Source: the human T2T-CHM13v2.0 reference genome, Homo sapiens. Taken from it: 64,000 bases of DNA. Made by a program: the position numbers and the translations under genes. The stretch lies in assembly GCF_009914755.1 (NCBI RefSeq), contig NC_060942.1. One strand, 5' to 3'. The notes below the pieces were generated by a model. It did no database searches, was not told the origin of the DNA, and was given only the letters and a program-made list of their open reading frames with translations. Positions within the stretch are counted from its first letter, which is position 1. Each line of letters opens with the position of its first letter. Positions 37,690-62,910 of this stretch are shown one piece after another.

Positions 37690-37784
37690 AGGCAGTAAAG
37701 TGGCTAATTAAGAGCATGGGCTTTGGGGGTTGGCCAGGCCTGGGTACCAGTCCTTCCACTTTTGATGAGACTTTAAACAAATTA
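37690..37784 (+). mobile_element. MIR 5' half, cut at a TA by Tigger3b
   Basis: 'aggcagtaaagtggctaattaagagcatgggctttgg...gatgagactttaaacaaatta' corresponds to MIR up to ...GTGACCTTGGGCAAGTTA. Confidence 0.75.
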
Positions 37785-38728
37785 CAATCATGCATCGCCT
37801 AACGACGGGGATGCCTTCTGAGAAATGCATCATTAGGCAATTTTGTCATTGTGTGAACATCACAGAGTGTACTTACACAAACAGATAGTAGAATCTACTA
37901 CACACCTAGGCTATATGGTATTGCCTATTGCTCCTGGGCTACAAACCTGGGCAGTGTGTGACTGTACTGAGTACTACAGGCCACTGTAACATAATGGTAA
38001 GTATCTGGGCTTAAACATAGAAAAGGTACGGTATAAATATGGGAAAATAATATACCTGTAAAGGGTAATAACCATGAATGGAGCTTGCAAGACTGGTAGC
38101 TGCTCTGGGAGAGTCAGATAGTGAGCAGGGAGTGAGTGGGAAGGCCCAGGACATCATGTAAATGACTGCAGACCTTATGAACACTGTATACTTAGGCTAC
38201 ACTACATTTGTTTTTAAAATTTTCTTTCTTCAGTAATAAATTCACCCTACCTTACTGTAACAGTTTTACTTTATAAACTTTTCAATTTTTTTAAACTTGA
38301 CTCTTTTGTAATGACACTTTGCTTAAAACACAAATACATTGTACAGCTGTACAAAAATATTTTTTTCTTTATATCCTTATTCTATAAACTTTTTTCTGTT
38401 TTAAAAATGTGTTACCTTTTTTTTTACTTTTTAACATTTTTTGTTAAAAACTAACAGACTAACACCACCGGGCCGGCCCTGCAGAGTTCCTACTCCCCCT
38501 TCCTGGCCCCTGGACTTGCTGCTGCTGCCACCGCTAGCACAATGACAATACTGTACTGTGCATAATCGCACGTGCTGGATTTTATATGACTGGCAGCACA
38601 GTAGGTTAGTTTATATCAACAGCACCACAAACGAGTGAAGTAATGTGTCGCACTATGACCTTACCAAGGCTACGACATCGCTAATTCATAGGAATTTTTC
38701 AGCTCCATTATAATTTTATGGGACCATC
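37785..38728 (+). mobile_element. Tigger3b (TcMar-Tigger) copy 1: internal deletion, right end missing
   Basis: TA|caatcatgcatcgcctaacgacgggg left terminus; colinear with the copy at 61629-62797; stops at 'ttatgggaccatc' about 55 bp before the right end. Confidence 0.9.
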
Positions 38729-38891
38729 TCATGGTAACCTCAAATCAAAAACATACAAAGGATAAGCAAAAAGTAAAAAGCAAAAAAATCACATCATATT
38801 AGAGAAAATCACTTTCACTAAGAGGAAGACAGGAAAAAAAAAAGGAAGAGAAGGCCACAATGCAACCAAAAAACAAACAAGATAGTAAGAG
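38728..38891 (+). mobile_element. L1M inter-ORF fragment
   Basis: 'ctcatggtaacctcaaatcaaaaacataca...agagaaaatcactttcactaagaggaagacagg' matches the old L1 spacer upstream of ORF2. Confidence 0.75.
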
Positions 38892-39640
38892 CCGGGAGTG
38901 CAGGGAGGTGTGGGGGGCGGGATTCGGTGGTGGCTATCCGGGGCCAGACAGCCCATGAATAGAGGCCAGGTTGGGTGCACTATCGGGGGCTACACAGCCC
39001 GTGGCAAGAAGGGGTTTGGGGCGATACCCATCGCAGGGTGGTGGGGTGGGTTCTGGGCACCATCGGGGGCTGCACTGCCGTCAGCGGGGGCTAGTTAGGG
39101 GCACTATCAGCTGCTGCATTGCCTGTGGCGGGGGTCGGGTTTGTTGCGCTATTGGGACTACACTGCTGACAGTGGGATACTGCTTAGGGGCGCTGTCAGG
39201 GGCCACACTGCCCGCGGTGGGGTGCAGGTTGGGTGCACTAACTGGGGCGTCATTCCCCACGGCTAGGGAAAGGTTGGGGTTGCTATCCGCTATCCGGGGC
39301 TGCTCCCCATCGTGGGGAGCGGATTGGGGGCCTTAAGGATCCGTGGCTGCACTATTCACTGTGGGGAGCAGGCTGTAGCGCTCTCTGAGACGTCACTGCT
39401 GGGGTGTCACTGCCTTCAGCGGGGGGCTGGTTAGGAGTCCTATCCATGGCTGCATGGGTCACCGCAGGGAGAGGGTTGGGGGCGCTATCCGGGGCTGCGC
39501 TGCCCACAGCAAGAGCAGGTTGGGGCGCTATCTGGTGCTGTAATGTCGGAGGCAGGGATGTGTTGGGGTGCTATGGGCTACTACACTGCGTGGCGAGGAG
39601 GTGGGGTGTTAGGGGCGCTATCGGGCTGCCCTGCCAACAG
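38892..39640. repeat. Degenerate G-rich tandem array, ~45-bp unit (ggttgggggcgctatccggggctgcactgcccgcggc-like)
   Basis: Recurring g(c/t)(g/a)ctatc...gggct(g/a)cactgcc motif at ~45-bp spacing; roughly 15 units. Confidence 0.8.
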
Positions 39641-40740
39641 GGGCAGAGGTTGCAGCAACAGCAGTGGTCTCCAAGAAAGGAGGCTTCCTCCTCTCCCCAG
39701 ACTCCAGACTCTAGAGGGCGACCTCCTCCTGCTCCTGCTCCAGTGGCACGCGTGCACAACGTTTCCACGGGAATCCTGGGTACGGCAGGGCCCCCACATC
39801 CGCCGTGATTCCCAGGCCTGCTTCCTCTCTCTCTGTGTTGCAGAGACCGGCTGGGACCCCTGAGCATGCTGGACACGGAGTAGCGGACACCACAGGGGGA
39901 CAGGGCCCTGTGGGTGGAGGCATCAGGATCGGAAACAGCACTTGGGTGGGAGGGCTGGCTGGGTCTGAGTTCCTGCTGGTTCTGCTCCCCAAGGAGCGCA
40001 GCCCTGGTGGGCCCAGCAGTTCCTGTGGACTGGGGAGCCGGGCAATGTGGTGTTTCCAGTCCCCACTCTAGGCCCCAGTTCCTGGCCAGCTTGGGCCAAA
40101 AGGAGAGGCTGGACTTTGGTGGGTGGGTATGAGTGCCTTCATTGAAACCGGCCCCTGCCACCCAGTGGCCAGCATGACAAGGTGAGGCTCTAATGCTGCT
40201 ACTCCCTGCATCCTCCTCTAGGATTTTCTGGCTTTGCCCACCCAGCTGTTACCAGCCAGGAGAAGGGTGAGTCACCTGCATGCTGCATGCTGGAGGCTGG
40301 AGCTTGCAGATAGCCTGCGGCTGCAACTCGCCTTGCTGGGGTTGGTGGCAGCTATGAGAACTACAGCGCCCAGGAGCGGTAGGAGGGCGGCGAGCTGCGG
40401 CCACAGCAAGGGCACGGCTGGGCAGTGGCCAGGTGGTAGGAACATTGTAGGGTGGGCCAGTGCATTGAGGGAAGCAGCCATGGTTGTATTGGCATTGGTG
40501 CTAGTGATGGCAGTGACAGCAAGTATGCAGGCCGGGAAGGGGGAGTAGGAGCGCTTCGGGGCCTGCCCTGCCAGGCCTTGGATGAGTAGGGTGCTTCGGG
40601 TGGGTAGGAAGCTTTGGGTGCTGTACCTCAGGCCTCAGTGGCAGCAGTGGAGGAACAGCCAGGGCAAGGAGGAGGAGTCCTCCTTCTCCTGCAGTCTCTG
40701 CAGGGCACCCTCCTCCTGCTGGCGCTTCAGCCAGGTGTGA
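38892..40740. promoter_or_regulatory. GC-rich, CpG-island-like segment (possible decayed promoter or first exon)
   Basis: Abrupt rise in GC and CpG content relative to both flanks; function not demonstrated. Confidence 0.45.
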
Positions 40741-41031
<291 letters not shown>

Positions 41032-42120
41032 TAGGGGGTGACTGTGTATCTTTTTGCTTTTTTTGTTTGTTTGTTTGTTTGTTTATATTGGACTTACTCA
41101 AATTTCATGAATCAGGGAGGGGAAAAAAGGTATCATAATAGGTCTTCTAATTCCCTCACGTGTTCTTTTTCCTTCCTTCTAGTCTGTGTTTTCTTCTCCT
41201 TATCATCATCTTCTTGTTCCTCCTCCTCCTCTTGTTTCCTTTTTCCCAAGCAATGGCCTTAACAACAAACCAAAACTGAGTTTTAAGAATAAACTACTTG
41301 TTACTGTGTTGTATTTTAAAAATAGTCTGTCCATTACCATGTTTTAGAGATGAGGAAAAAAATTATTTGCGTAATTATTTAGTTACTTGAGTAGCTGTGC
41401 TTTCATGATCCTGTTAATGTGTTGGAAGTAGTTATTCAGGAACTTAATAAACAAAGCACAAATAAAATACTGGTAGCAAACAGCCATTTCATCTCTCTCA
41501 CATAGTAGTCTGAAGACATGCAAGAGGCAGAGGGGTAATAAGTTCCAATTTATGAGATCATTAAGTGAACCATACTCCCTTCATATTATTTCTCTGCCAC
41601 CATTTTCAGGAGTATTGTCATCTGCATGAGCAAACCTGGTTCATCACTACATATTTGCAACAGGAAAAGGAAGGGGAGGATCATGTATAACATTTTTAGG
41701 CCAAGATTCACAACCAAAAACAAGACTTTATTAATGTTGAGCCCTCTTTTATTCCTAGTATTACTACCTTTGTTATGAACCTTTTTCTTTTTCTTATTTT
41801 CATTTTCAGTGATTACTCTAGAAGTTTATGCATTTTATTGACTACTTTAAAAAATCTATATTGTATCGTATTTTTTAAGCCCACAGAAATGTGTAAGGCC
41901 TATAATTTTGACACTTTTAAATTATTTTATACTGTCAATATATGTAAGTATATGCATAAGTACAACCAGATAGCTTATTTTGAAGAGATAGTGTCTAAAT
42001 TTTTGTCCAGAGTAGATTGGTTGCAGTTTCTGAGGTGTGTTTCTCAATACATTGCCTCAGTTTTAAAGTCCATAGAAATTTGAATACTGTTTAACATATA
42101 GTCCTTTGTTTATAGGCTGT

Positions 42121-43291
42121 TATCGGGGAACCTGCCCCGATATTCAAGTAGGTTCTTTTCTATTTTCCCTAAGCATCAGCCAGCTTGAGAAATAAAGGGA
42201 CAGAGTACAAAAGAGAGAAATTTTAAAGCGGGGCAATGCCAGATATCGGGGGACCTGCCCCGATAATCACGTAGGTTCTTTTCTATTTTTCCTAAGTGTC
42301 AGCCGGCTTGAGAAATAAAGGGACAGAGTACAAAAGAGAGAAATTTTAAAGCTGGGCGTCCAGGGGAGACATCACACATTGGTAGGATCCGTGATGCCCC
42401 ACAAGCCACAAAAACCAGCAAGTTTTTAGAGGGAGTGTGTGAATAGGTGTGGGTGACAGACATCAAGTACTTAACAGGGTAATAGAATACCACAAGGCAA
42501 GTGGAGGCAGGGCGAGACCACAGGACCACATGACCGAGGCGAAATTAAAATTGCTAATGAAGTTTCGGGCACCATTGTCATTGATAACATCTTATCAGGA
42601 GTTGGTTTTGAGATCAACCAGTCTGACCAAAACTTATTAGGCGGGAATTTCCTCTTCCTAACAAGCCTGGGAGTGCTATGGGAGACTGGTCTATTTCATC
42701 TCTGCAGCCTCAACCATAAGAGACAGGCGCACCTGGGGAAGCTGTTTATAAGCCTATACCTCCAGGCACGTATTCTCTTTCTCAGGGATGTTCCATGCTG
42801 AGGAAAAGAATTCAGCGATATTTCTCCCGTTTGCTTTTGAAAGAAGAGAAATATGGCTCTGTTCTGCCCGGCTCACCAGCAGTCAGAGTTTAAGGTTATC
42901 TCTCTTACTCCCTGAATAATTGCTGTTATCCTGCTCTTTTTTCAAGGTGCCCACATTTCATATTGCTCAAACACACATGCTGTACAATATGTGTAGTTAA
43001 CGCAATTATCACATGGTCCTGAGGTGATATACATCCTCCTCAGCTGACAGGATTAAGAGATTAAAGTAAAGACAGGCATAGGAAATCACAAGGGTATTGA
43101 TTGGGGAAGTGATAAGTGTCCATGAAATCTTTACAATTTATGTTTAGAGATTGCAGTAAAGACAGGCATAAGAAATTACTAGAGTATTAATTTGGGGAAC
43201 TAATAAATGTCCATGAAATCTTTACAATCCACATTCTTCTGCCATGGCTTCAGCTGGTCCCTCCGTTTGGGGTCCCTGACTTCCCACAACA
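42121..43291 (-). mobile_element. MER11 solo LTR (HERV-K11/HML-8) with duplicated U5 end
   Basis: Minus strand starts TGTTGTGGGAAGTCAGGGACCCCAAACGG and ends CCCCGATA; 6-bp TSD GGCTGT at 42115-42120 and 43292-43297. Confidence 0.93.
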
Positions 43292-45644
43292 GGCTGTTTA
43301 ATATTTCTAAAGACTAAAGACATCACAGCCCCTTTTAAAATTCAGTAATATTAATAAAATTTGAAATATACAGTGCTAGAATACAACAAATTCAGAGGAA
43401 AAATTGTTAAACTATATAGCTGTAGAGCAGGAATGAAATCCAGGTTCTAAGCTATAAGGGGGCCATGAGCTTTATAAAATACAGGTGCATCAGTGACTGG
43501 GCATAGAGTCGGCAGAATTACAGGATAGTTAAGAGAGTGAGCTGTGGAGCTTAACTCTTGTGAACATGAATTTTTAAACTGCACAGTGCCTCAGTCTATC
43601 CATCTTTACCATGGGGACAGTACTAAGTTTTTGAGTTTTTTCCAGTTGACTGAATTGTTTCCCTAGTCTTTCTTGTTGCCACTCTTGATGCCCACATGAG
43701 AAGACCTAAGGTAATTTCTCACAGGCCTGGGACTCCTTGGCAAAACAGAAGGTGCCACAGACCCCATTTTAGGAGAAACCTCTGTTTTCCTCATGGAATC
43801 CCAGGAAGTGTAAGCAGAAAGTTCCCTCTCAAAACCTAAGGCTGTGCTCAGTTTTGCCTTGCTTTACCTGACCTTTTTGATTTGGGCAGACATCAGAAAT
43901 TAGTAGTGGGGAGAGGGCTAATAAAAGTTATGGATATGAAGATGTATCTATGGTAAGAAAGGTTAGGAAGGAAATAAATTTTATATGAGAGAGGATCTTG
44001 TATGGCCAATTCTTGTCCTAAAGTAGGACTAATTATTTAGAAAAGAGGGAAATACAGGACAAGTCAGAAATGCATAAAATGGGAAAGAAAAGGTACAACT
44101 GCTAGATCATCTCCTGCCTAGAAGTATTGAGTGATGTTTGCATAAAGAGGCTCTAATTAATTGGCTTCAAAAAAAAATGAAGGCTCTTAAATATTTTGTC
44201 AGAAAATAGAAACTCTAATGCCTTTTAGTTCATGTGACTGCAGTAATCTTTGGGAAATACAGTTTTAAAATTATTGGTAAAACGAAAATATCTTCAAAAT
44301 TTAGACATTTGGTCTAAATTAAGTCAGAGGTTAAATTTGCTAAGTGCTTTAATGTCATACACCGCTTCTTTGACTTTGGAAAATTGTCCAGTTTACCTGG
44401 TTTGAAGCCATTAGATTTCTAGGTAAGGCCTGGGGTCAGGCGGAGTTAGCCATGCCTCCTAGCTGTGCTGGAAAGAGTCAGACTTTATCTGCAGTTCTGT
44501 CTTGCTTCCTAGACTATGCACCTGGTACGTAACTAAAACTGCTTACACACACACACACACGCACACACACGCACGCACACACACATAAAAACAAAAAAAA
44601 GTGTTTTTCATTTTTAAAAGACATGGTAATATGGTTTTAAAAAAAAACCAAGTGTTGCCTAATTTAGAAAGTTAAAGAATTACTTTTAGTTGGAAGAAAA
44701 TAAAGTCTAAGCAAGTTATAGGAAGTTTATGAAAATTAACTTTGTAAAGAATTCTGTCTGTAAGAAAGTTGACAAAAATTAAAAGGGTATTATTTAGTTC
44801 TTCCATAAATTAAATATTAAAACAAAAGCATACTGAAACAGGGCCCATATGTCAAAATAATAGGGCTTTTTTGAACATTGATCCGTTCTTTAACAAGAAA
44901 AAAATATAGAGTTATAAATAGTTATGAAAATCTTACTTTATACTCAAATTAATTAAAACTAGATAGATTCATAACATTTTATTAAAAAGTAGCTTTAGCA
45001 TTAAAGATGCACTAATACAAAAATAAAATTTGGTTTTCTTTTTAAAAAGATTTTTATGTAATATTGAGAGACAATAAAAGATTTGTTTGCCTTTTGAGTA
45101 AATTAAAACAAAAAGGAGGGGAGAGAGAAGTGACAGATTTAGTTGGCCTCATGCTATCTCTACTAAGTTTTGTTTGGAAAGCTAAGTCTCCTATCAGAGT
45201 AAAGGTTTTTCCCTTTCTAAAATTTTTGAGTTATCATTTTTGGCTAAATAAATGACTTACATTGACCTGGGATTCTCTTTTGTGATATCCAGTGTTTTAA
45301 GCCTTTCATATTTGACAAACTTTCCAAGATCAAATTCTAAGGTTAAAAAAAGACTCAGCTTATTTGATATATTAAAACCATATAGAAAGCATTGTCAAAT
45401 ATAAAATGGTGTTTAACTTTAGGTTATATTCATACAAATATGTTATTGTATAAGATTTCTATAATTGTGTCTCAGCATACGTTATCAGTAATAATTATAA
45501 GTCTTATGTTAAATTGTTTTGTGTCATAGAGATGACCAGATTTCCTTGTTGATTACATACTAACTATGCCAGTCCTGAGAGTTTTGTCACCCACAGACAA
45601 TTGCTGTCTTGTTTTAATCCTTCTCAAAAGGTGGTTTATAATTA

Positions 45645-45998
<354 letters not shown>

Positions 45999-46681
45999 TT
46001 AACTAAAAGATTGTGAATAGAGAGAAGCAAAACAACAAACTTCTAAAACTCTCGTGGAAAGGTGATATGTTAAACATTGCGAATCCTTCTGTTTTTCAGA
46101 GTCAAGAGAACCTTTCGAGCTGTTTACAACTTTCAGCAATCTGAGTAAAGTATACTCCTGTAAGCAAAATTAGCATATTGCTTTCTCTCTACCTGACTTC
46201 TTCAGGGTTTAGAAACTATTTTTGAGTATTCTCAACTTACGGCAATATAGTTATTTGCGTAAGTGCAATAAAAATCTGTTTTCTTTTGTAATAGAAAATG
46301 AGTGGAGATGCTGCTTATTTTATCAAGGCTTTTACTAGAATGGCATGCTTTCAAATACAAACACATACTTTAAGGTGTCAAAGTTGAATAACAAAGCCAG
46401 TAAAACCCCTTGGAAAAACTGGCCTCATACCTTGTCTACAGAGTCCCTGTACAAGTTTCCTGGCCTGAGGTAAGTAATGAATGTCACATTCTGTCAGGCT
46501 TAGGAGCCCCAAGTCATCGTGGAACCTCAAGAGGAGAGGAATTTGCCCAACTCATCTAAATATTTATGACCTGTTGTGTCTGGCACAAATTCATGACTGG
46601 GCTCAAAGCTTCAAGGAGTATAACCTGAGATTCCTCAAGGAGAAAAGTTTTAGCAAAGCAATTTTAAAAAGGGCCAGTATG

Positions 46682-46980
46682 AGGCCAAGCACGGTGGCTC
46701 ACGCCTGTAATCCCAGCACTTTGGGATGAGGCCGAGGCAGGTGGATCATGAGGTCAGGATTTTGAGACCAGCCTGGCCAACATAGTGAAACCCTGTCTCT
46801 ACTAAAAATACAAAAAATTAGCCAGGTGTGGTGGTGGGTGCCTGTAATCCCAGCTACTCGGGAGGCTGAGGCAGGAGAATTGCTTGAACCCGCGGGGGCA
46901 GAGGTTGCAGTGAGCCGAGATAGCGCCACTGCACTCCAGCCCAGGCAACAGTGCGAGACTCCATCTCAAAAAAATAAAAA
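46682..46980 (+). mobile_element. AluS (Sg-like)
   Basis: Dimeric Alu; TSD aaaaag(g/a)gccagtatg. Confidence 0.92.
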
Positions 46981-48029
46981 GAGCCAGTATGGCAAATAAT
47001 TATTCCTACTGCACTTTATGCAAATAATCAGGTCAAATATAATAAGACTAAGACTTACTTTGCAAGTAAATTTGACTTACTATGATTTATTTTTATTAAC
47101 GGGGGACTGGAGAGAGAAACATGATGTTTGCAAAAACTGTAGTACATGTGTTGTTAGTTGTTCTTGAGTTTTTATTATTTTCTACAGTTTGAACTAAATC
47201 CTGAATTTTTTGTGGGCCGTAGGTCTCCAAACTAATGCTTTCAGATTTTTCTTCCATTTTTCTGTCTTGCACTCAATGAAATTGCTCCTACCTTTTAACT
47301 GAGGTCCTGCAAGCTTAAGCTTACTACTTGTAATATAGGCAGCAAAAAACATGTCAGATTGTCACCACCTTCCTCCTCTGTAACTGAAGAGGCATAGCCC
47401 ATCTGCGTGCCACCTCCTGATATAGAAAACAGCTGTTTAACTGAACTGATCTAGTTTCAGAACTAGGAAGCTGACTGAAAATTATGGGGCAGTATATTTA
47501 AATTTGTTCTTTCCTGTATATCCCAATCTGTCTGTCTAACAACTTCTGACCCAAGTCTCTCTCTGCTAGTAACCCCATGTCTGATTGGTTCTCGGAGCTG
47601 TCCATCTGGATCCCTCAGAGCTTAAGAGCTATTCTACTAAGACTTTCACTGTTTATCCTGGAACTTGTTATTTACCTTATAGTCCACTTTTGTGTGCTAA
47701 AACTATAGATGAGAATGCCATCTTGGGTGCTCAAGGATTCATCTTTGTAAATTGCCACCAAAGCCAAAAGGAAGAGACAATAAGGAAGCCTCTTGTCCCA
47801 CTGGGAAATGACATTGCAGAAGTTACTAAAATAAAGTCCTTTGATGGGCAGGATACTATGCTCAGGTTACTTATCTAAAGTAGCTAAAAATTTAAGCAAA
47901 GAATTATCCATTTCTTCCCTAGTCTGATATAATATTTTATGATTCAAAATAAGCTTGGGGTCAATAAGTAAGAGCTATCTGCAGGTTTAAAACAATAATA
48001 GTAATGCTAATAATAGCCACAGTAGTTTC

Positions 48030-48240
48030 AGTTAATAATGCTGATAATCATGTATGAGGCACTGGATTAAATGCCATATATACATACATTACTTATACAC
48101 AACCACCTTTGAAGGATATATTATTATCCTCTTTTTCATACAGGAAAACATACATGGTGATAAGCAATGCTCCCAAAGTCACACATCTAGCAAGTAGAAA
48201 AGCTAGGAATTAAACCCAGTCTTGTGGGAATCTAAAGCCT
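48030..48240 (-). mobile_element. MIR
   Basis: 'ttattatcctctttttcatacaggaaaaca...cccaaagtcacacatctagcaagt'. Confidence 0.7.
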
Positions 48241-48297: not shown

Positions 48298-48616
<319 letters not shown>

Positions 48617-50860: not shown

Positions 50861-53030
50861 TTAATAGAAAGCACCACTATATTCTATTTCTTCGTAGGGT
50901 GGCACACATTCCTCTTTGGGCAGTGATCGATATTTGGTCAAGGCCATTATTTGAGTAGTGGTTTGCCTGGTTACGATTGCTTCTATAGTCAACTGAATGC
51001 TTCTGATTAGGAAAGGCAAGAGACAAGACAGAATCAGGCACCTGCCCAGGATGGCTAAGAAGCCCCCTATCAAAGTCTTAAATCCACCAATAGATGAAAA
51101 CCATCCTGTGAAGAGGGAGTCTGGAGACCACCCTTTCCAGGTTTGAACTGGAACATGGGCTAGTTTTCACATTCTGGCAGTAATTTCCATGATTGCTTTT
51201 CCATTATCATCAATTTCTAGGCAGCAATTTGTTAGGTTGAATTTTCCACGTACTCCCCTTCCTGGGCAAGTAGGCAATCTAATACTAGTCTATTCTGGTA
51301 GACAGCATTCCTCATTTGTGTGGCTTGCTTGGCTAGCAAGTCTAAAGCTTTTGCTGTTTCATTACTTATGATTTCAAGAACAGCTTGTAATATTATGATT
51401 CTGTTAAGCATATAGATAGGGGTACGGTATCCCCATGACCCATCCTGTGCCCAAGTGGCAGGTCCATAATATTTGATAATCCTTTCAGGGGACCACTCAT
51501 TATCTTTCCAATCCCCTACATCTATGTCCTTTTTTCTGTTTGTGTCTATGCTTCTTTTGACTTTTATCTTCATCATAAACAGAGTATCCTAGAGCCTCTC
51601 CTTGTTTTAGGGGAATTAGGAAAAAGAATGGTCTGATTGTTCCTAATATGCAGGCTCCTGTCCATTTGGCAGGCAGTTGTCTATGCTCACGTTCCACAGA
51701 TCCAGTAAAGGCCTGAAGGTGCTTGCCAGGTGTTTAGAGCTTCTAGCTGATACCAGGAGTGGTTTAAAGTAGGAAATCTGAAGAAAAGGGTTTAAATCAG
51801 GAAATGAGGTACTATTTTCTGACATCCATAAGGTCTTCCCTTTAGTTTCATCATAATACTATTGCCCCAGACAAGTAAGTCCTCCTACTAGATCTGTGAA
51901 AGACTTTCCCCATCGAGCAATGCAGAATCTTCCTATTATGGAGGTTTTTAACAGCCAGACACTTGGACCAGAAACAGTTAGGTCGGTGGTGGAGTCAGGC
52001 AAAGTGAAATCATCTTGAGGCATTAATCCCTTGCCTGCCATGGCCATTGATCTCCCATGTTAGTTCTTCCACATACATAACATGAGGATATTCCTAGGCT
52101 GTCAGCTGTATTCTCAGGTTACGTGGGCAAACAGATTCTTTGTTGGAGAGAGGAGTTCCTTTTGGACCTGGAATTGTGGAATGGAATGGGTTTTTGCCTT
52201 CCTTATAATATGTAAGCTATCCTTTTTTGCTGACTGCATTTTATAGCATTATGGGATAACCTGTAGCTCATATAGATTGATCTGGTTCCAGGATAGTGAG
52301 ATTTATAAGACTACAGGTATCTGTTTTGCAATCAGGCTTTGCTCACAGTTTAATATATACCATGAGCTGTTTTGTGGTAGTCAGGGAACTGGTGGAGCTC
52401 GATACACAATCCCAGCAAGTTAATTCTGGCACCTTGCTGGTAGAGTTAGGAAACATGCAGTTCCTTTTTCCACAACTGCTACTCCTTGAGCTCCCTGTGG
52501 TAGTTGAGACTATAGGATAGGCAGATCCCGTGAATGCCACTTGACAAGAATTATAGTACAGAGATGAGTCTGTCTCTTTGTAGGTGAGACTCTAACTTGG
52601 TTTAGAAGCCTCCCTTCTTTCATCCCATTATGGATCTCAAACGAAATCCCAGGCTGGAATTTTGGATCATAGCATGTATAGGACTGACTGTTTCTTGGGT
52701 CACAAACTGAATAGGTTGCCTGATTGTAGATACAGGTCCCTAGGTGGGTCCTGGAGCATTCATAATATGTAAGGGACAAGATAGTCTTAATTTTTGTCTT
52801 CCCTTGCCATGTGTTATGCATACAGTAAGAACACTCTTCTAGGGGCTTTCCCTTTAGCATATGCAGGGGTGCCAATAAAAGGAAAATGGTAAACAACATA
52901 TCTATACTAAACACGGACAGGAAAGGTCCTTTCCTGGGAGGAAAGATTGGCAAAAATGATAGCATAGTGTAACAGAACAATTAATATTACTAAAATAGCA
53001 ATCAAACTTAAAACTTCTATCCACATTTAC
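50861..53030 (-). pseudogene. env: ERV env (ERV3/HERV-E-like), frameshifted
   Basis: '[55 protein letters not shown]', immunosuppressive-domain-like [14 protein letters not shown] and a TM anchor in ORF 50861-51073. Confidence 0.93.
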
Positions 53031-53039
53031 TAATCTGAT

Positions 53040-56000
53040 GAAGACTCCTCAAGCTTCGGCTGTGTGTAGACTAGTCAGCTTCCAGTGTGACTAGAGCAGG
53101 GCTTGATGACTCCTCAATCTTCAGCCTTGTGTAGACTGGCCGGCCTCCTGATTGGCCAGAGCAGGACTGTCGTCTTTCTCTGCAGTGGTTTGGTTCCATC
53201 GCAGGATCAGTCAGATCGGATGGTCTGGGTCCTGTTGACTGGTCCACTTGTCCTGTGCCGCTGGTTTCAGGTGACTGTGGTGGATCCAGGGCCCCATACC
53301 TGCAACTTTTAACAACAGTAGGGGTAGACAGTATTACAGTATGGGGCCCATCCCATATGGGTCCTAGAGTGGTTGGATTCCATTTTGTAACAGAAACAGA
53401 GTCTCTAGGGCTAAAAGGATGTACTGGGTCAACTAGACTTACAGGTATTCTTTCCTGTACCCAACCATGGACCTCTTGCATGGCTATTCCTAAAGCCTGC
53501 ATTTGCTTTCTTAAAGTTAATTCCCCTAGTTCCTGGAGATCACCTTTAATCTGATTTATGACTGGGGGTGGTCGGCCGAACATAATCTCATAGGGCAAAT
53601 ACCCAGTTTGTTTGGTAGGGGTGCACCTGACTTGGAGGCAAGACCTGATCCCATCTAAGGTGAGCTTCTTGACAGAACTTCTTCAGCACTTGCTTGAGTG
53701 TCCAGTTCATCCGTTCTACTTTTCCTGAGCTCTGCAGACAGTAGGCTGTGTACAACTACCATTTTATCTTTAACAGCCAAGTCAAGTCCTGGACTATTTC
53801 AGCCACAAATGCTGGTCTATTATCGATCTTAAAGTTAAAGGCAGTCCAAATCTGGGAATAATGTCTCTTAGCAACACCTGGGTTACCTCTTGTGCCTTTT
53901 CTGTTTGGGTGGGGAAAGCCTCTACCCATCCTGAAAAGGTGCAGACAAACACCAACATGTACCGATAGCCCCCAGCCAGAGGCAATTTGGTAAAATCCAC
54001 AAGTAGGTTCTCACAAGGTGCTGCTCCAACTTCCTGAATTCCTGGAGGCCTGGTTGGTCCCTGCCATGGGTTGTTTTGGGCACAGGTTAGACATTGCTCA
54101 CAAACAGTTTGAGTAATGGCGGTGAGTCGTGGCACATAAAAGTGTCGCCCCAGCAAAGTCTCTAGTGCTATCTTTCCCATGTGAGTCCCTTGGTGAAACT
54201 GATTAACAAATCTGGGAGCCACCATCTCAGGTATGACTAATCTCCCATCGGAGAACTTCCGCCATCCTCCTTCAATGTAGCTCCCATTCTCCTGGGCAAA
54301 CCAGGCCTTTTCACTTGGAGTGTAGCTGGGTGTCTCTGGGAGAGAAATCTCTGGGAGGAGAGGCATAACCAGAGCTTCCTCCTTAGAGGGCAAACTCATC
54401 TTTGCTGCTCACTTTGCTTCCCTGTCCACTTTCCTGTTTCCTTTTGACTCAAAAGTTCCTGCTGCCTTATGTCCTTTGCAGTGAATGACAGCCACCTTTT
54501 CTGGAGCCCATACAGCATCTAAGAGCTGTAGAATTTCTTCCTTATACTTTATTTCTTTGCCTCCTGCAGTTAGAAGTTCTCTTTCTTTATATATTGTCCC
54601 ATGGACATACAGTGTAGCAAAAGCATGCTTAAAGTCAGTATAAATGTTGACTACTTTTCCTTTTGCTAGTAGTAAGTCTCTTGTTAGGGCTATTAGCTCC
54701 ACCCTCTGGGCTGATGTCCCAGCAGGCAGTGGTTGAGCCTCTACCACTGAGTCACAGGTCACTACTGCATACCCAGCTTGGCAGACCCCTTCTGATATGA
54801 AGCTGCCTCCATCTGTGAAGTACTCAACATCTGGGCCTCCAAGGGGCTGATCTGCTAAGTCCCTTCAGCTGGAGAATACTTCGTCTACTACATCTATGCA
54901 ATAATGTTGAGGGAGGGGATCCCTCAGCTTTTCTATGGGCAGCAGAGTGGTTGGATTTTAAGTATTGACAGTTTCTACAGTTATATATGGATTTTCACAT
55001 AGGAGGTCTTGATATTTAGTCATTCTTGGGTTTGATAACCTGTGGTGCCCTCTTTGGTCCATGAGAGTTATAAATGAGTGTAGCACTCAAATGATTAATT
55101 TCTGTCCTAAAGTTAGTTTTTTGGCTTGTTGTGCCAGCAGGGCTGTGGCTGCTAGCGCTTTAAAACAAGGGGGCCAGCCTTGTGCTATGGTGTCTGTTTA
55201 GATAAATATGTCCCCAGCCGCTGCCATGACCTCATCATTTGGATCATCAGAACTCCAATAGCCATTCCTTTTTGCTCATGGACACATAGGAAGAAAAGCT
55301 TAGTCTGTTTTGGCAGCCCTAAGGCTGGGGCCTGTATTAGAGCTGTCTTGTTTTCTTTAAAGGCCTTTTTCTGGTCAGGCCCCCGCCAGAGGAGGGGCTC
55401 CTTTTCTCCCTGCTTTGTGGTTTCCATATAGCAGTTTTGCCATGAGTGAGAAATTTAGAATCCAAATATGGCAGAAACCTGCGGTGCTCCTAAAAATTCC
55501 CTTATTTGACACCGGGTGGCTGGAGTAGGTAGTGCACACACAGTCCACTTCCGTTCACTGCCAAGCTCACGTTTTGCTTGACTTATTTCAAAGCCTAGGT
55601 ACTTAACTCCTTCTGAGCATAATTTTGCCTTTTCTTTAGATACTCTGTATCCTGTTTCCCATAGGAGATGGAGGAGGTTATCAGTGCCTTAAAGGCAGTC
55701 AACCCAGGTAGGGGTTGCAAGTAAAAGATCAGCTATATACTGTAACAGGACACATTTGTCATTGGATGGGGTGAAAGCCCTAAGATCTGATGCCAGTGCC
55801 TCCTCAAAAATCACTGGGGAGTTTTTAAACCCTTGTGGGAGCCACGTCCAGGTATACTGAGTTTTTCCCCAATGAAATGCAAAGATAGGCTGGCTCACAG
55901 GGGCTAGCGGTAGACAGAAGAATGCATCTTTGAGATCCAGGCAAGTAAACTATGCAACACTCGTGGAATGTGACCCATCAACTGCCCAGTACATAACCAT

Positions 56001-56768
56001 CCAGTGGGTTAGGTACCACTGGATGAATGGAAACTGTAGCCTGGTTCACTGTGTGTAAATCTTGCACTGGCCTATATTCATCAGTTGGCTTCCATACCAG
56101 CAAAAGGGGTGTGTTCCAAGGGGACCTGCACTTCACTATGATGCCATGCTTAAAGAGCCAATCTATGTGTTTTTGAATGCCACTTATGGCCTCTATGAAC
56201 AACGGGTATTGACGAACCCATACCGGAGTCACTCCAAGTTTTAGCTCCACCAAGACAGCCAATCCGGGTGGATTGTCTTCAGCCCACACCCCCGGAATCT
56301 TTGCAAGTAATCCATACATTTCAAGTGGTCCTGGTAGTTCTAGCCTAAGTGCTGTTTCTGCATATAGCCTCCATTTATCAGCCCTTGGGAAGGTGAGGGT
56401 TAATACCATAGTCTTTGGCTGACTCAGGTTTAAAGACATGTTCCCTTGCAGCTCGAAAGAAATTTGCACCTGCAGTTTTTGGAGTAAGTCTCTTCCTAGC
56501 AAGGGGACTGGACAATTTGGAAGGTATAGAAACTCATGCTGGACTTCTCATCCTCCAATAATACACCTCCTTGACTGGCAGAAGGGTCTCCTCTCTGAGA
56601 CTCCGGTTGCCCCAATAATAGTTGTGTAATTCCTGGATAGTGGCCCTATAGGTTGCATCACTACCGAATGCTCAGCTCCGGTATCTACCATAAAATCCAT
56701 CTGTTGGCCCCCTATCTCCACTGAGACCATAGGCTCCTGGGGGCTAAAGAAATGGAGCCCAGTCTGTC
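53040..56768 (-). pseudogene. pol: ERV pro-pol (protease, RT, RNase H, integrase), disrupted
   Basis: Protease FMVDTGAEHS; [11 protein letters not shown] and QYIAD (degenerate YxDD); RNase H SAQRVELIAL; integrase HQGTH...CLTC and FSGWVEAFPT; GPY/F-type WDGPHTV. Confidence 0.95.
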
Positions 56769-58491
56769 TCAGTCCTCATAGCCTGCTGCCTCTGCTAGGC
56801 TGATTAGATTGATGACCGGTCTCAGAACACAGCGGCTGGTGGCCAGAGGCTCCAGCCAAGCTCCCTGGTCATGGCTATTGCCCTTATCTTTCTCTGGACA
56901 TTCATCCTTCCAGTGTCCTTTCTTTTTGCACAATGCACATTGATCCTTCTCCAGCCTTGTCCGGCCTTCAAAACCTGGTCTAGCCTAACCTCTTCCACGA
57001 CCACATCTGCGACCATATCTGTGTCCCCTCACAATGCCAGTCTCTCTTTCAACCAGGGCAGCCGCTAATAGCTCAGGCTTTTTCTTAAGCCTCTGCTCAG
57101 CTTCCTTCTTTTCCTCTTGTTCATGGTTAACATACACCTTAGTAGCCACCTCTGTAAGCTGAGTAGCAATTCATGCCTGCGAAACCTTCCAGTTTCTGAA
57201 GTTTCCACTTAATGTCACCCTGCACCTGGCTAAGAAATGATGTATTCACCATGAGCTGATTTTCAGTAGCCTCTGGATCAAATGGAGTATAGAGCTGGTA
57301 TGACTCACAGAGCCTCTCATAAAACTGACTGGGGTTCTCATCAGTCTTTTGGAGCACCTCTGAAATCTTTCCTATATTCATTGCTTTCTTTCCACTGGAC
57401 TTTATCCCATTTAGAAGTGCCTCCTGATACCTTTGCAGATGCTGAAGCTCCTCTGCATCATTTAGGTCCCCGTTGGGGTCTATCTCTGGGAACTCTTCCT
57501 AGGCATAATGCCAGACATCTCTTGTACCATCTGGCACATTGTTCTCTAGCCATTGGAGGGCTGCTAGAGTCACTCTCCTTTGCTCCTCTGTGTTGAACAG
57601 TGTTAAAAGGAGCTGTTGGCAGTCTGACCAGGTGGGGTTATGGGTCAGAAAAATGGATCTCATCAAGTCTATGAGGGCTTGAGTCTTTTCCGTATAGGAG
57701 GGAGTATGTTGTTTCCAATTTAGGAGGTCTGTGGCAGAGAAGGGCTGGTAGATGAAAATCTGCTGCCCTACTTGAACCTGGCCTTGCTCATCATGATAAA
57801 TTTGTGCTCAAGTCTCATGGAGGGGCATTTGTAAGGCTCGGGTGTGGCCAGACTGGAGGTGGCCCACTGCGTCACTTTGCTTTTCCTCCTTAACTTTTAC
57901 AGGCAAAGGCTCGGATTCTCCCCTGTGGGGTGATGGTTGAGACTCACTTTCCTCTGAGCCTGATTCCTCAAGGGCCATTTGCTCCATGCCTTGTCTTAGC
58001 TCTAAGAAGGATGGATATATCAGAGCATAAGGGGGAGGAAATTCCCTATCCTCTGGAGGAGCTTGTAGAACCAGCTTTTCCTAACTCTCCTGTTGCCTTT
58101 TCTTTTTTCCGAGGTTCTAAGCGTAATTGATTTTTCAGCTGCCTTAGGCTCAGCCTGGACCACCAAGGCTTTACAATAGGTTACCAGACAGGGCTGAAGC
58201 CATTTGGGGTGAGTCTAGACTACGTTTAACCAGGAGTCAATGTATGGAAACTGATCTGGGTGCTCAGGCTGTCCTCCAACTCCGGTTACTACCCTGAACA
58301 CATGGCCAATTGCTTCCCTATCTATTGTTCCTTCAGCTGGCCACCCGACATTAAAAGAAGGCCATTTTAATTCACAAAGAGTTTTCAATCTTTGCAGGGG
58401 TCAGTTGAACTCCATAATCTCCACCAAAACCTTTCTTGAAATTCTTTAACATACACTCCAACGGACTAGGTTTTGATGCTTTTCTTCCCAT
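56769..58491 (-). pseudogene. gag: ERV gag, disrupted
   Basis: Starts MGRKASKPSPLECMLKNFKKGFGGDYGV; MHR-like QKTDENPSQFYERLCESY; single CCHC knuckle CALCKKKGHWKDEC; stop TGA at 56769-56771. Confidence 0.93.
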
Positions 58492-58511
58492 TTCCACTCT
58501 TGCGACGCAAG

Positions 58512-59175
<664 letters not shown>

Positions 59176-60492
59176 AACTTATAGTATAAAGGTATTAGAT
59201 GAAGCCAAGAAGAATGTTTCTGACAGGAACAGTCACAAGAAGCAGAAGGCAAAAAAAAAAATGTATATTGATAATTAAAATTAGCATGTAGAATCTCTAA
59301 AAAATGCTTGCAAATCAACAAGGTTTTTTTCTACAGAACTTATCAGAGCTTTTCAAAATACTAAAATGCTTTGTGATGCTTCAAAGACTCTACAGATTTA
59401 CCCAAAGTTAGTGCACCTCGGTGCGTCTCTGCTGAGGCTAAACCATGCCACCCTTCAGGACATCCCACCAAGTGGATCTTTCCAGCCTCCCCTTATTTCA
59501 ATGTTTCATGGCTTTCCTTTCTACATAAACAGTATCCACTATCACTTAGGTCAGTGAGGTTTGGAGCTACATTTCATAGTCCCTGATTCAAACGCCAATA
59601 GAACTACTAATAGGAGCTTAAAGACTTGCAGCCACTTCTGGATAGAGGGAGATAATGGGAAGGTAGAGCCATCTACAGGAGACATGTGGTACTGCACAAC
59701 AAGAGCCGTGAGGAGCAGGTGGGCAAAGGGACTGAAAAATGCATCACAGCACCTGGTAGAAATGGCTCTACGCCCTCTTTATTTAACATAGAGATTTAGC
59801 AACGAGGGCAGGGTTTTCAAGAGCAGACCTTTTGTTTTTGTTTGATGGGGTTGGGTGGAGAGACGTGGTCTTGACCACAATTTATGTTATGACAACATGT
59901 GTGAAGAAGAGAGGATATTTAAAGTAGGTGTTTCCTTTGCAGGCTTGAATGGGCATTCGACTTATACACAAAAGTGCACCCATTTTCAGTGTTTCCATAT
60001 CAGCACCAATGTCATTTAACTGTAAGATTCTTTTTACCATAAACACTTGGGATGCTCAATGGTTTAAAGGACATTCTACACAAAAGTTTGAAAGCTCTTA
60101 ATTACAGCAACTAAAACCTCACAATGGTTTTCTAGATATGTCTTTTGTGTAGTATTTTGAAAAATGGATTTTTCTTCCAAAGAGGTTAGGACAATAGCAT
60201 TTATGCCATAAGAACTCTGTTTTTTTGGACCACATTTTGTGATAAAAAGCAAATGAGCTTTGCATTTAGGAGCTCCAGGAAATCCTTGTTGCCCTTAGAA
60301 ATCTGCCCCCTCACCCCGACAAAGGGCCAGACAGCTTGGAGGTAGGGAATATCCCCCTCCATAGGCTCACCAAGACGTGCAGCTGGCTGTATGTTCTTTA
60401 CTGATGTCCTGTGAGCCCTTAAGGTATTTCAACAAGGAGCATCTTGATTTTCTGTGGATTTATGGAAGAAAATGTATCTCTCCAAATGTGTA

Positions 60493-61626
60493 TAGTAGTT
60501 CCTCCTTATCTGCAGGGAATAGTTCCAAGACCCCCAGTGAATGCCTAATACTGCAGATAGTACACAACACTATATATGCTATATATTTTTTTACTATACA
60601 TGCATATATACATACCAGAAATACAGTTTAATTTATAAACTGGGCACCATACGTGATTAACAACCATAACTACTAATAAAATAGAACAATTAAGACAATA
60701 GGCTGTAATAAAAGTCATGTGACTGTGGCCTCCCTTTCTCTCTCTCAAAATATCTTACTGTTCTGCACTCACCCTTCCTGTGGTAATGTGAGATGATACG
60801 GTGCCTACGGGATGACATGAAGTGAGGCGAATGGAGACATTTTGACATATTGTTAGGCTACTACTGCCCTCCTGATGATACATCAGGGAGAGGATCACCT
60901 GCTTCACATGGCCCCAGAGCATCGCACCATGACAACGTATTTTTTGCTGGGTGTCAGGAGCAGACGATGCTGATGTTTGGGGATCCTGGAGAATTGAAGG
61001 GTTTTTCTTTTTTGTTTTTTTGTTGTGTTATTTTATTTATTTTTTTTTTTTGCCAAGACCTGCTGGAAGAACATTGCAATCAGATGTTGTGTCTTTATTT
61101 TCAATTCATCAAAGTGTTGCTGCAGAGATTATAATTCTTCAGTGAGAATATGAGTAATTTTAACACTGCATTCCATCCTAAGATATGCCATAATTTGGTT
61201 CTTTAATGTCTGTGCAATTTGAAACACTTCAGCACACTTCGATTATGTCCATATTGCTGGTTCTGCTTCATTTCTTCATCTTTCTCTGCAGACGACTCAA
61301 CAAATTCTTCCAAATCCTCATTTGTTAACACTTCTTGATGTCCTTCAATATCTTCTGCCACTTCAGCAAGCATGTCAGCAACCCTTCTCCACCAACCTGT
61401 CTTGCTGCACGAATGATTTTCCTAACTTCTCCACTGACCCCAGAGAGGCTTTTAAAATCATTCATGGCTTCACTCCATAAGTTCCTGTAGCAGGCATCTA
61501 CAATTTCTGGTTTTAATTCATCCAATGCAGCTTTGAAGAATGTTATTGCATTAGCAATAGTGAATGGTTGCACTGCATTATGTCCAGATTAGGGTCTGCA
61601 TCAATTGCTGATAAAATGTGATCACA
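60493..61626 (-). mobile_element. Tigger7/MER44-like DNA transposon with transposase C-terminal remnant
   Basis: Terminus 'tagtagttcctccttatctgcagggaatagttccaagacccccagtg'; ORF 61325-61573 (FTIANAITFFKAALDELKPEIVDACYRNLW) resembles a pogo/Tigger DDE domain. Confidence 0.75.
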
Positions 61627-61628
61627 TA

Positions 61629-62797
61629 CAGTCAGTCATCAATGAACAACATAGATACATTCTTAGAAATGTGTCATAAGATGTTTGTCTCTTTGCATGA
61701 ATGATGAAAGCGCATTTCCACAGACTTAGATGGAACAGCCTACTACACACCTAGGCTGTATGGTAGGGCCTATTGCTCCTAGGCTACAAACCTGTACCAC
61801 ATGTTACTGTACTGAATACTGCAGGCAATTGCAACACAATGGTATTTGTGTACCTAAACATATCTAAACACAGAAAAGGAACAGTTAAAAATAGGGCATG
61901 AAAGATAAAATACGATATACCTCAAGAGGGGACTTGCGATGAATGTAGCTTGCAGGACTGGAATTTGCTCTGAGTCAGTGAATGAGTGGTGGCTGAATGT
62001 GAAGGCTAGGACATTACTGTGCACTACTGTAGTCTTTATTAAACACCGTACACTTAGGCTGCACTAAATATGTTTTTAATTTTTTCTTCAATAATAAATT
62101 AACCTTAGCTTACTGTAGCTTTTTGACTTTATAAACTTAATTTTTCTTAATTTTTTGACTTGTAATAACAGCTTAAAACACAGGTTGTACAGCTGTACAA
62201 AAATATTCTATAAGCTTTTTTCTTTTCTTTTTTTTTAGCTTTTTAATATTTTTTTTTTTGTTAAAAGCTAACACACAAACACCACCTGCATTAGCCCATG
62301 TAGGCCTACACAGGGTCAGGATCATCAACATCACTGTCTTCCATCTCCACATCCTGTCCCAGTGGAAGATTTTCAGGGGCAATAACATGCATGGATCTGC
62401 CATCTCCTGGAATAACAGTGCCTTCTGAACACCTCCTGAGGGATCTGCCTGAGGCTGCTTTACAGTTAACCTTTTTTAATAAGTAGAAAGATTACATTCT
62501 AAAATAACAATAAAAAGTACAGTAAACCCATAAACTAGTAACGTAGTTATTTTCATTATTAAGTATTATATATTGTACCTTATATTGTGTGCTATAGTGT
62601 TACACCCCTGGCAGCACAGTAGTTTTGTTGATACCAGCACCATCACAAACACATGAATAATGTACTGCACTGTGACATAGAAAGGCTACAATGTCACTAG
62701 ATGATTCGTGCTTGTCCAGCTCCATCATAATCTTATGAGCCCACCATCCATACCGGGTCTGTCACTGACCAAAGCCTTGTTAGGCAGTGCATTACTG
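61629..62797 (+). mobile_element. Tigger3b copy 2, near full length, probably chimeric
   Basis: TA|cagtca... to ...gcagtgcattactg|TA; colinear with copy 1. Confidence 0.9.
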
Positions 62798-62799
62798 TA

Positions 62800-62910
62800 C
62801 TTCTATGAACCTCAGTGTCCTCTTCTATGAAAATGGAGTGATGTAGTACTATGTCAGGGGATTATGTGAGAATTAATTGGGATGATGTATGTAAAGATTC
62901 TGAGCAATTT
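62800..62910 (+). mobile_element. MIR 3' half
   Basis: 'cttctatgaacctcagtgtcctcttctatgaaaatggagtgat...ggggattatgtgagaattaattgggatgatgtatgtaaag' corresponds to MIR from CTTAACCTCTCTGAGCCTCAG onward. Confidence 0.8.

What the first reader, a model, noticed from the sequence alone, without database searches (positions are those of the whole stretch)
37690..62910. One MIR split 25 kb apart: a Tigger3b-bounded cargo block inserted at a single TA
Seen: a MIR 5' half stops at ...aaacaaatTA (37784) directly before the left end of Tigger3b copy 1. A MIR 3' half starts at 62800 directly after the right end plus TA of Tigger3b copy 2. Joined, they read caaatta|cttctatgaacctcag, matching the recalled MIR consensus CAAGTTA|CTTAACCTCTCTGAGCCTCAG at the exact TA. 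Copy 1 lacks only its last ~55 bp. Copy 2 sits in a Tigger7-like element on its left, but that element never resumes on its right. Inference: 37785-62797 is foreign to the original site. Either a duplicated segment entered a resident Tigger3b, with a non-homologous left junction (38728) and a Tigger3b-Tigger3b homologous right junction, or, less likely, it moved as a composite Tigger transposon using the outer ends. Younger elements in the block (MER11, the provirus, Alus) may have inserted later.
Basis: partly seen in the sequence, partly recalled or inferred. Interest (0 to 1): 0.85.

Follow-up and report, generated by a model that had tools for sequence, protein, structure and literature searches.

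The report
Old transposon split by duplicated DNA
An ancient Tigger3-type transposon that had landed in a MIR repeat was later broken open by about 24 kb of DNA copied from elsewhere, partly from a chromosome 7 relative, and joined back through homology between two Tigger3 copies; this is a tidy fossil of ordinary repair-driven duplication, not a new kind of mobile element.

Summary
A profile built from 28 other MIR copies aligns the two flanks, once joined, as one MIR (46.7 bits). The left half ends at model position 104 and the right starts at 110. Both abut genuine Tigger3-family termini flanked by TA.

The outer Tigger3 parts are not foreign. They are the two halves of one resident element A (37785-38469 and about 62330-62797). 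The insert is 38470-62329.

Its right end (59310-62329) is a paralogue of chr7:35661026-35666184, at about 82% identity. It includes a Tigger7-like element and a nested Tigger3 (B). On chr7 the Tigger7-like element continues on both sides of B.

Copy 2 switches from B to A at 62329/62332 (max chi-square, 12 of 5000 permutations). This is in register with where copy 1 stops being A. Copy 1 is also chimeric: A's left part, an 82-bp inverted filler, then 176 bp that group with chr7's right part (bootstrap 86).

So a break in A was most likely repaired by copying ectopic DNA, with a homologous B/A right junction and a filler-bearing left junction. Composite transposition is disfavoured. No outgroup genome could be examined. 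This is a new instance of a known kind, of modest interest.

The parts
37707..37784 (+). MIR 5' half (profile positions about 18-104). Its last two bases, TA at 37783-37784, are the Tigger target site.
   Evidence: Joined-flank alignment to the HMM of 28 other MIR copies; sequence read.
37785..38469 (+). A_L: left part of the resident Tigger3-type element A (family alignment positions 52-731), with its left terminus.
   Evidence: Alignments; terminus. Not sister to copy 2 or chr7 in the segment-L tree.
38470..38551 (-). 82-bp filler: an inverted copy of a piece of the GC-rich low-copy duplicon (homologue of window 40486-40568).
   Evidence: 79.3% to the window's own piece; 84.1% to C15:18859416-99 and to C18:12208920-12209004.
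38552..38727 (+). B_R: right-hand piece (family positions 1022-1194) of the donor Tigger3 element B, out of order relative to B_L.
   Evidence: 80.5% to the chr7 element against 69.7% to copy 2. 8 shared derived sites with chr7 against 1 and 1. (c1,c7) UFBoot 86.
38728..38891 (.). Fragment of a high-copy interspersed repeat (L1-like by eye; name not tested).
   Evidence: 1435 first-look candidates, 39 scored non-self hits at 79-83%.
38890..45031 (+). GC-rich low-copy duplicon, colinear with loci on C2, C10, C22, C15, C18, C13, C21 and others at 70-87%. Interrupted by an Alu (40756-41018) and an LTR (42121-43293) that are absent from the C2:110.13 Mb paralogue.
45032..50349 (.). Rest of the mosaic: old interspersed repeats, four Alus, and duplicon pieces. 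47719-48706 is 91% identical to C18:12260025-12260677 (minus). 48969-50138 belongs to a multi-copy pericentromeric family.
50350..58505 (-). Gamma-retrovirus-like provirus remnant (gag, protease, RNase H, integrase and env traces). It has an LTR-like end at 50350-50893. No second LTR was found.
   Evidence: Pfam; no direct repeat; family edges.
58512..58997 (-). Low-copy segment, 88% identical to C18:12254831-12255319.
59310..61626 (+). Duplicon shared only with chr7 (C7:35661026-35665230), about 82-85% identity. 60487-61626 is the left part of a Tigger7-like (pogo-type) element.
61629..62329 (+). B_L: left part of donor Tigger3 element B, nested at the same TA of the Tigger7-like element as on chr7.
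   Evidence: 81.9% to chr7; 27 shared derived sites; (c2,c7) UFBoot 99; breakpoint.
62330..62797 (+). A_R: right part of resident element A with its right terminus. The start is uncertain within 62287-62332, and more loosely up to 62478.
   Evidence: Only 3 of 113 variable sites are shared with chr7 right of 62329. Copy 2 is not with chr7 in the tree. Terminus.
62798..62911 (+). TA (62798-62799), then the MIR 3' half (profile positions 110-223).

Best explanation
One Tigger3-type DNA transposon (A, about 1.15-1.2 kb) inserted at a TA inside a MIR. That step is ordinary cut-and-paste with a TA duplication.

Much later A was broken once, at about family position 731-775. The break was healed by copying DNA from elsewhere. 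The result is a block that is now 23.9 kb long (38470-62329).

The right end of the block is a copy of a segment whose surviving relative lies at chr7:35.66 Mb. That segment holds unique DNA, a Tigger7-like element and a Tigger3 copy (B) nested in it. The block joins A inside B, in register, so homology between B and A guided that junction.

The left junction is not homologous. A's left half is followed by an 82-bp inverted templated filler. Then comes a 176-bp piece from the right part of B. Then comes the rest of the mosaic: an L1-like fragment, a GC-rich low-copy duplicon and a provirus remnant.

B's right piece therefore lies before B's left piece. This permuted order is what results if both ends of the break invade B and copy outwards, and the products are then end-joined. 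It would also result from several template switches in one replication-based repair (SDSA/BIR-MMBIR type).

Shown: the two-element, four-piece anatomy, the chr7 paralogy and the in-register crossover.
Inferred: the repair mechanism, whether it took one step or several, and the date. Divergence of about 0.1 substitutions per site per lineage puts the event tens of millions of years ago.

Alus and the solo LTR came later.
For: MIR continuity across the block, and TA plus true family termini at both outer ends.

chr7 paralogy. It is colinear at 59310-59749, 60064-60257, 60255-61022 and 61031-62569, at 81-85% identity, and runs through the same Tigger7-like/Tigger3 boundary. The non-repeat parts hit only chr7 in the whole assembly.

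chr7 is the undisturbed nest. Its left and right flanks are adjacent in 4 of 4 other Tigger7-like copies. The window has no such right flank after either copy.

Segment L (61631-62286). Copy 2 and chr7 share 27 derived sites, against 6 and 3 for the other pairs. (c2,c7) has UFBoot 99. Identity is 81.9%, against at most 78.1% between copy 2 and any of the 12 family copies.

Breakpoint. Maximum chi-square falls between 62329 and 62332: 29 of 133 variable sites are shared to the left and 3 of 113 to the right. 12 of 5000 permutations reach this value.

Copy 1's A part ends at the position aligned to 62286. A_L plus A_R (685 + 468 bp) make an almost complete element.

Segment R. Copy 1 and chr7 share 8 derived sites, against 1 and 1. 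They are 80.5% identical, against 64.9% for copy 2 and chr7. (c1,c7) has UFBoot 86, and its terminal branches (0.116, 0.117) match those of c2/c7 in segment L (0.122, 0.099).

The filler is homologous to a piece lying 2 kb away inside the block.
Against: No outgroup genome was available, so the uninterrupted MIR-Tigger3-MIR site was never seen.

In segment M (62287-62568) raw identity of copy 2 to chr7 is still 80.4%. The crossover therefore rests on shared derived sites, not on identity.

The link between B_R and chr7 rests on 177 bp. One family copy (L028) is as close to chr7 there (80.6%) as copy 1 is (80.5%). Some of the shared sites lie in CpG-rich sequence.

The 12 family copies were chosen as best matches to the chr7 element. 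That makes them a small and biased outgroup set.

chr7 has no GC-rich duplicon next to the shared segment, and no locus with both was found. So the immediate donor is unknown, or the block was built in several steps.

Patches that are 88-91% identical to C18:12.25-12.26 Mb point to later events or to gene conversion.

Five MIR profile positions are missing at the junction.
Confidence: 0.65

Rival explanations
1. Integration of a circle. A circular DNA carrying B and the cargo recombined once with the resident A (Campbell-type). This directly yields A_L-B_R...B_L-A_R. The left hybrid junction later lost about 290 bp and gained the 82-bp filler.
For: The permuted order of the B pieces around the cargo. 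The breaks in A and in B fall at the same element position on the right, and within 45 bp on the left for A. The two B pieces have the same age.
Against: The left junction is not in register. B positions 732-1021 are missing and a foreign inverted 82 bp sits there, so an extra event is needed. No independent sign of a circle junction could be identified. The junctions at 38727/38728 and near 59310 are equally explained by template switches or end joining.
Confidence: 0.15
2. Composite (macro-)transposition. Tigger transposase used the left end of copy 1 and the right end of copy 2. It moved everything between them as one unit into the TA of the MIR.
For: The outer ends are true family termini with TA on both sides, and the MIR is split exactly there. 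Copy 1 lacks its own right end. That could force use of the next right end.
Against: Copy 2 is not donor-type to its right end. It stops sharing derived sites with the chr7 paralogue at 62329/62332 and is not sister to it beyond that point. Copy 1 changes ancestry at the matching position. The chr7/chr18 split lies on an internal branch of 0.047, after the star-like burst of the family. So the transposase would have had to remain active long after the burst.
Confidence: 0.04
3. The chr7 element, not the window's copies, is the recombinant, or gene conversion has blurred the ancestry. On this view copies 1 and 2 are two whole independent elements and the shared MIR is a coincidence of two MIR copies.
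For: Support for the right-hand grouping is moderate (UFBoot 86, 177 bp). The family sample is small.
Against: chr7's element sits as a simple TA insertion in a Tigger7-like copy that continues on both sides. A recombinant would carry the window's flank instead. The two MIR halves abut within 5 profile positions and have the same orientation. Random partners match that in 2 and 3 of 2000 trials.
Confidence: 0.05

Closest known systems
Repeat-guided segmental (duplicative) insertion, as in primate duplications with interspersed repeats at their junctions (recalled general knowledge; no paper read for it here)
   Same: Copied DNA from another chromosome sits in a new place. One junction lies inside two copies of the same repeat family, in register. 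The block is a mosaic of pieces with different paralogues.
   Different: The repeat is an old Tigger3-type DNA transposon rather than an Alu. Identity to the paralogue is about 82%, far below the 90% usually used to call segmental duplications. The donor repeat is present as two pieces in permuted order.
Replication- or repair-based duplication by break-induced replication between dispersed repeats or at microhomology (Payen et al. 2008, PMC2518615; only the search listing and the start of the abstract were seen). MMBIR/FoSTeS and aberrant two-ended SDSA are recalled.
   Same: One homologous junction, one non-homologous junction with a short inverted templated insert from nearby sequence, and several switches within one donor neighbourhood.
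   Different: This is a fossil inferred from about 0.1 substitutions per site of decay. Microhomologies at the junctions can no longer be judged. The number of steps is unknown.
Nested transposon insertions used for relative dating (recalled practice)
   Same: MIR, then Tigger3 A. On chr7, Tigger7-like, then Tigger3 B. Alus and an LTR lie inside the block and are absent from paralogues.
   Different: The main interruption of A is not a transposon insertion. It is a copied mosaic block without target-site duplication.
Composite transposons / macrotransposition by two element copies (recalled: bacterial composite transposons, maize Ac/Ds macrotransposition)
   Same: Two same-family copies in direct order bracket cargo. 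The outer termini are flanked by the family's TA duplication.
   Different: The inner ancestry of both copies switches in register between two different elements. Transposition of a composite would not produce that.

Membership tests
MIR SINE (one copy split in two) | Both flanks match a MIR family profile, in the same orientation, at adjoining profile coordinates. | tested here: met
   HMM from 28 other copies. The joined flanks give one hit over model 20-220, at 46.7 bits. The left ends at 104 and the right starts at 110. Controls: 2 of 2000 and 3 of 2000. The left flank alone is not reported as a hit.
MIR SINE (one copy split in two) | Both halves belong to the same named subfamily (MIR, MIRb, MIRc, MIR3). 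| not testable with these tools
   No Dfam, Repbase or RepeatMasker library was available.
Tigger3-type (pogo, Tc1/mariner) DNA transposon | Terminal inverted repeats of the family, flanked by a TA duplication. | tested here: met
   The 12 family copies end TA|CAGTCATGC...GCATGACTG|TA. Copy 1's left end and copy 2's right end fit this and have TA outside. The outer ends match 18 of 30 as inverted repeats, without gaps.
Tigger3-type (pogo, Tc1/mariner) DNA transposon | Homology along the element to other genomic copies. | tested here: met
   6376 first-look candidates, 40 scored, at 71-77% to the chr7 element. Alignment with 12 copies. The subfamily label '3b' was not tested.
Composite two-copy transposon | Each bracketing copy is one element from the donor, so copy 2 should be donor-type to its outer end. 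| tested here: not met
   Breakpoint at 62329/62332. Only 3 of 113 variable sites are shared with the chr7 paralogue beyond it. Copy 2 is not sister to chr7 in the tree of 62330-62797.
Composite two-copy transposon | An empty target site (an intact MIR with no Tigger3) in lineages that predate the event. | not testable with these tools
   Only the human assembly is held.
Segmental duplication (usual working definition: at least 1 kb and at least 90% identity; recalled) | At least 1 kb shared with another locus. | tested here: met
   About 3 kb is colinear with chr7:35661026-35666184.
Segmental duplication (usual working definition: at least 1 kb and at least 90% identity; recalled) | At least 90% identity. 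| tested here: not met
   81-85% identity. It is an ancient duplication below the catalogue threshold.
Campbell-type integration of a circle by one crossover | Both hybrid junctions are in register at the same element position. | tested here: inconclusive
   The right junction is in register. The left junction lacks family positions 732-1021 and carries an 82-bp foreign insert.

The most novel reading that the evidence does not exclude
The permuted order of the donor Tigger3 pieces (right piece first, left piece last) is the footprint of a germline extrachromosomal circle. On this reading the circle re-entered a chromosome tens of millions of years ago, by one homologous crossover between two Tigger3 copies. 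It would be a dated fossil of circular-DNA reintegration seeding a duplication.
Probability: 0.15. Interest if true: 0.55.

Novelty: new member of a known kind. Interest (0 to 1): 0.33.

Why it matters
It shows in base-level detail how an old, dead DNA transposon can supply the homology that lets foreign DNA be copied into a break. That event started a mosaic of duplicated segments in 18p11.21.

It is also a caution for repeat annotation. What looks like 'two Tigger3b copies' is four pieces of two elements. Nested-repeat dating or composite-transposon claims that ignore this would go wrong.

No gene or known regulatory element is involved, so the biological consequence is probably nil.

Tried and rejected
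MIR detection:
- Single-sequence nhmmer with the joined flanks found no other MIR in 94 kb.
- Sensitive blastn gave only alignments of about 50% identity.
- A whole-genome search with the left MIR half found only itself.
- All of these were replaced by the iterative profile.

Whole-genome search with 38729-50300 was swamped by an LTR of about 1050 bp and by Alus. I then searched repeat-poor pieces separately.

Provirus LTRs. No direct repeat was found by the repeat finder or by sensitive blastn of 49000-52000 against 57500-60300.

Extra chr7 paralogy. None was found for 38729-50500.

Naming the GC-rich duplicon. Its paralogue places recall the ANKRD26/ANKRD30/ANKRD62/POTE gene family, from memory only. 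Pfam found no ankyrin or other host domain in 4 + 27 open frames. One weak sub-threshold viral-glycoprotein match is taken as noise. The name is therefore not used.

Microhomology at the filler junctions is at most 1-3 nt. After this much decay it is uninformative.

Simple crossover models were rejected. Unequal crossing-over or deletion between two direct copies does not give the observed order of flanks (reasoning only). They also predict duplicated MIR 3' or Tigger7-like right flanks, and none were found.

Unavailable resources:
- A paper on the ages of human DNA transposons was not held.
- One paper search was malformed.
Full report
**What is there**

The window is human chr18 (T2T). At 37783-37784 a TA precedes a Tigger3-type left terminus (37785). 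At 62797 a Tigger3-type right terminus is followed by TA and then by flank. Twelve other family copies fetched from the same assembly end TA|CAGTCATGC...GCATGACTG|TA. Both outer ends are therefore true termini. Copy 2 begins at 61629, after its own TA.

**Are the flanks one MIR?**

I avoided any recalled consensus. Direct searches with the flanks failed. An iterative nhmmer search of 294 kb (the window, 200 kb of neighbours and 30 kb of chr7), with the two flanks masked, converged on 28 copies, all with E below 1e-3. These were re-aligned de novo and turned into a 226-position HMM.

- The joined flanks align as one hit over model 20-220, at 46.7 bits and E 9.7e-16.
- The right flank alone scores 23.4 bits, starting at model 110.
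- The left flank ends at model 104.
- So the halves share orientation and do not overlap, and five positions are missing. This copy has several other small deletions.
- 25 of the 28 family copies run through that zone.
- With 2000 random left partners and 2000 random right partners, 2 and 3 reach 40 bits across the junction.
- The left flank alone is not reported by nhmmer. This is a weakness.

**The two Tigger3 copies**

They align along the element at about 74-75% identity. Copy 1 stops at family position 1194 of about 1247. It also has positions 732-1021 replaced by 82 bp of unrelated GC-rich sequence.

**A paralogue on chr7**

A whole-genome search with 59000-61630 found one colinear locus, C7:35661026-35665233. 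It matched parts of the query that hit nothing else. After fetching 30 kb, blastn showed four colinear matches at 81-85% identity: 59310-59749, 60064-60257, 60255-61022 and 61031-62569. They run straight from a Tigger7-like element into the Tigger3 copy, at the same TA. Homology starts at 59310-59312.

On chr7 the sequences left and right of the Tigger3 are adjacent in 4 of 4 other Tigger7-like copies. Neither 62800-63200 nor 38729-39100 of the window matches those copies. So chr7 keeps the original nest (Tigger3 'B' inside a Tigger7-like element). The window holds a copy of its left part only.

**Both window copies are chimeras**

I used the 12 family copies as outgroups.

- Segment L (61631-62286). 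Copy 2 and chr7 share 27 derived sites, 14 of them found in no family copy. The other pairs share 6 and 3. Identity is 81.9%, against at most 78.1% between copy 2 and any family copy. (c2,c7) has UFBoot 99.
- Segment M (62287-62568). Only 3 such sites are shared.
- Segment R (62569-62745, aligned to copy 1 38552-38728). Copy 1 and chr7 share 8 derived sites, against 1 and 1. Identity is 80.5%, against 64.9% for copy 2 and chr7. (c1,c7) has UFBoot 86, with terminal branches of 0.116 and 0.117. Those match the 0.122 and 0.099 of c2/c7 in segment L.
- A maximum chi-square scan places the switch in copy 2 between 62329 and 62332. To the left, 29 of 133 variable sites are shared; to the right, 3 of 113. 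12 of 5000 permutations reach that value.
- Copy 1's outer part ends at the position aligned to 62286.

The pieces are therefore:

- A_L: 37785-38469
- filler: 38470-38551
- B_R: 38552-38727
- B_L: 61629-62329
- A_R: about 62330-62797

A_L plus A_R make an almost complete element that was broken once.

Caveats:

- Raw identity in segment M is not lower (80.4%).
- One family copy equals copy 1's similarity to chr7 in segment R (80.6%).
- Some shared sites lie in CpG-rich sequence.
- The outgroup copies were picked as best matches to chr7.

**The rest of the block**

- The filler is an inverted copy of a piece that also lies at 40486-40568. It is 79% identical to that piece and 84% identical to paralogues on C15 and C18.
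- 38728-38891 is a fragment of a high-copy repeat.
- 38890 to about 45031 is a GC-rich low-copy duplicon, colinear with loci on C2, C10, C22, C15, C18 and others at 70-87%. The Alu at 40756-41018 and the LTR at 42121-43293 are missing from the C2:110.13 Mb paralogue, so they came later.
- 47719-48706 and 58512-58997 are 91% and 88% identical to C18:12.25-12.26 Mb.
- 50350-58505 is a gamma-retrovirus-like remnant on the minus strand. It has one LTR-like end and no detectable second LTR.
- No part of 38729-50500 resembles the chr7 locus.

**Mechanism**

The core anatomy is a resident element broken once, with copied DNA inside, a right junction in register between B and A, and a left junction carrying a templated inverted filler and an out-of-order B piece. 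This fits repair of a break in A by ectopic copying.

Either both ends invaded B, synthesised outwards and were then end-joined, or one replication-based repair made several template switches. Circle integration by a single crossover gives the same topology, but it needs an extra event at the left junction.

Composite transposition is disfavoured, because copy 2 is not donor-type to its end and copy 1 changes ancestry at the matching point. It is also disfavoured because the chr7/chr18 split sits on an internal branch of 0.047, after the family's star-like burst.

Divergence of about 18% between the paralogues means roughly 0.1 substitutions per site per lineage. By commonly quoted mammalian rates (recalled), that is tens of millions of years.

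**What remains open**

- The empty site in outgroups.
- The immediate donor of the GC-rich part.
- Whether the block arrived in one step or several.
- All repeat subfamily names.

Literature: only a Repbase overview was read in passages, for the names Tigger3/3b and Tigger7 (PMC5753468). A yeast study of replication-based duplications was seen only as a search listing (PMC2518615).

**Verdict**

This is a real and carefully resolvable structure. It is a new instance of repeat-guided duplicative insertion, not a new kind of element.

Noticed in passing
window 50350-58505 (minus strand): Gamma-retrovirus-like remnant with gag p30, protease, RNase H, integrase and an env HR1-HR2 trace, in many short frames. 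There is an LTR-like end at 50350-50893 but no matching second LTR. The internal part stops at about 58505, next to a segment 88% identical to C18:12.25 Mb. So the provirus looks truncated by, or carried in, a rearrangement rather than simply inserted.
   Followed up: partly
window 42121-43293: LTR of about 1050 bp (42244-43293), 89-92% identical to at least 39 scored copies. It is preceded by a 114-bp partial duplicate of its own start (42121-42234; 93% to 42244-42357, 95-97% to other copies).
   Followed up: partly
window 38890-45031 and 47719-50138: A GC-rich low-copy duplicon family whose other copies cluster near centromeres and in known duplication-rich regions (C2:89-98 and 130-132 Mb, C9:40-44 Mb, C10:37-43 Mb, C13, C14, C15, C16, C18:12.2 and 14.3-14.9 Mb, C21, C22). 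All paralogues start at window 38890-38894. The places recall the ANKRD26/30/62-POTE gene family, from memory only. Pfam found no ankyrin repeat in the open frames.
   Followed up: partly
L026 (C15:18859680-18860547): In the C15 paralogue the GC-rich duplicon ends directly against the right end of another Tigger3-type copy in inverted orientation. This is a second association of this duplicon with a Tigger3 element and is unexplained.
   Followed up: no
window 36552-36626: A separate MIR copy on the + strand, 1.1 kb upstream of the split one (E 3e-10 with the profile).
   Followed up: yes
window 59750-60063 and C7:35661653-35663895: Lineage-specific differences inside the shared chr7/chr18 segment. 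314 bp is present only in the window, and 2.2 kb only on chr7. Neither was characterised.
   Followed up: no
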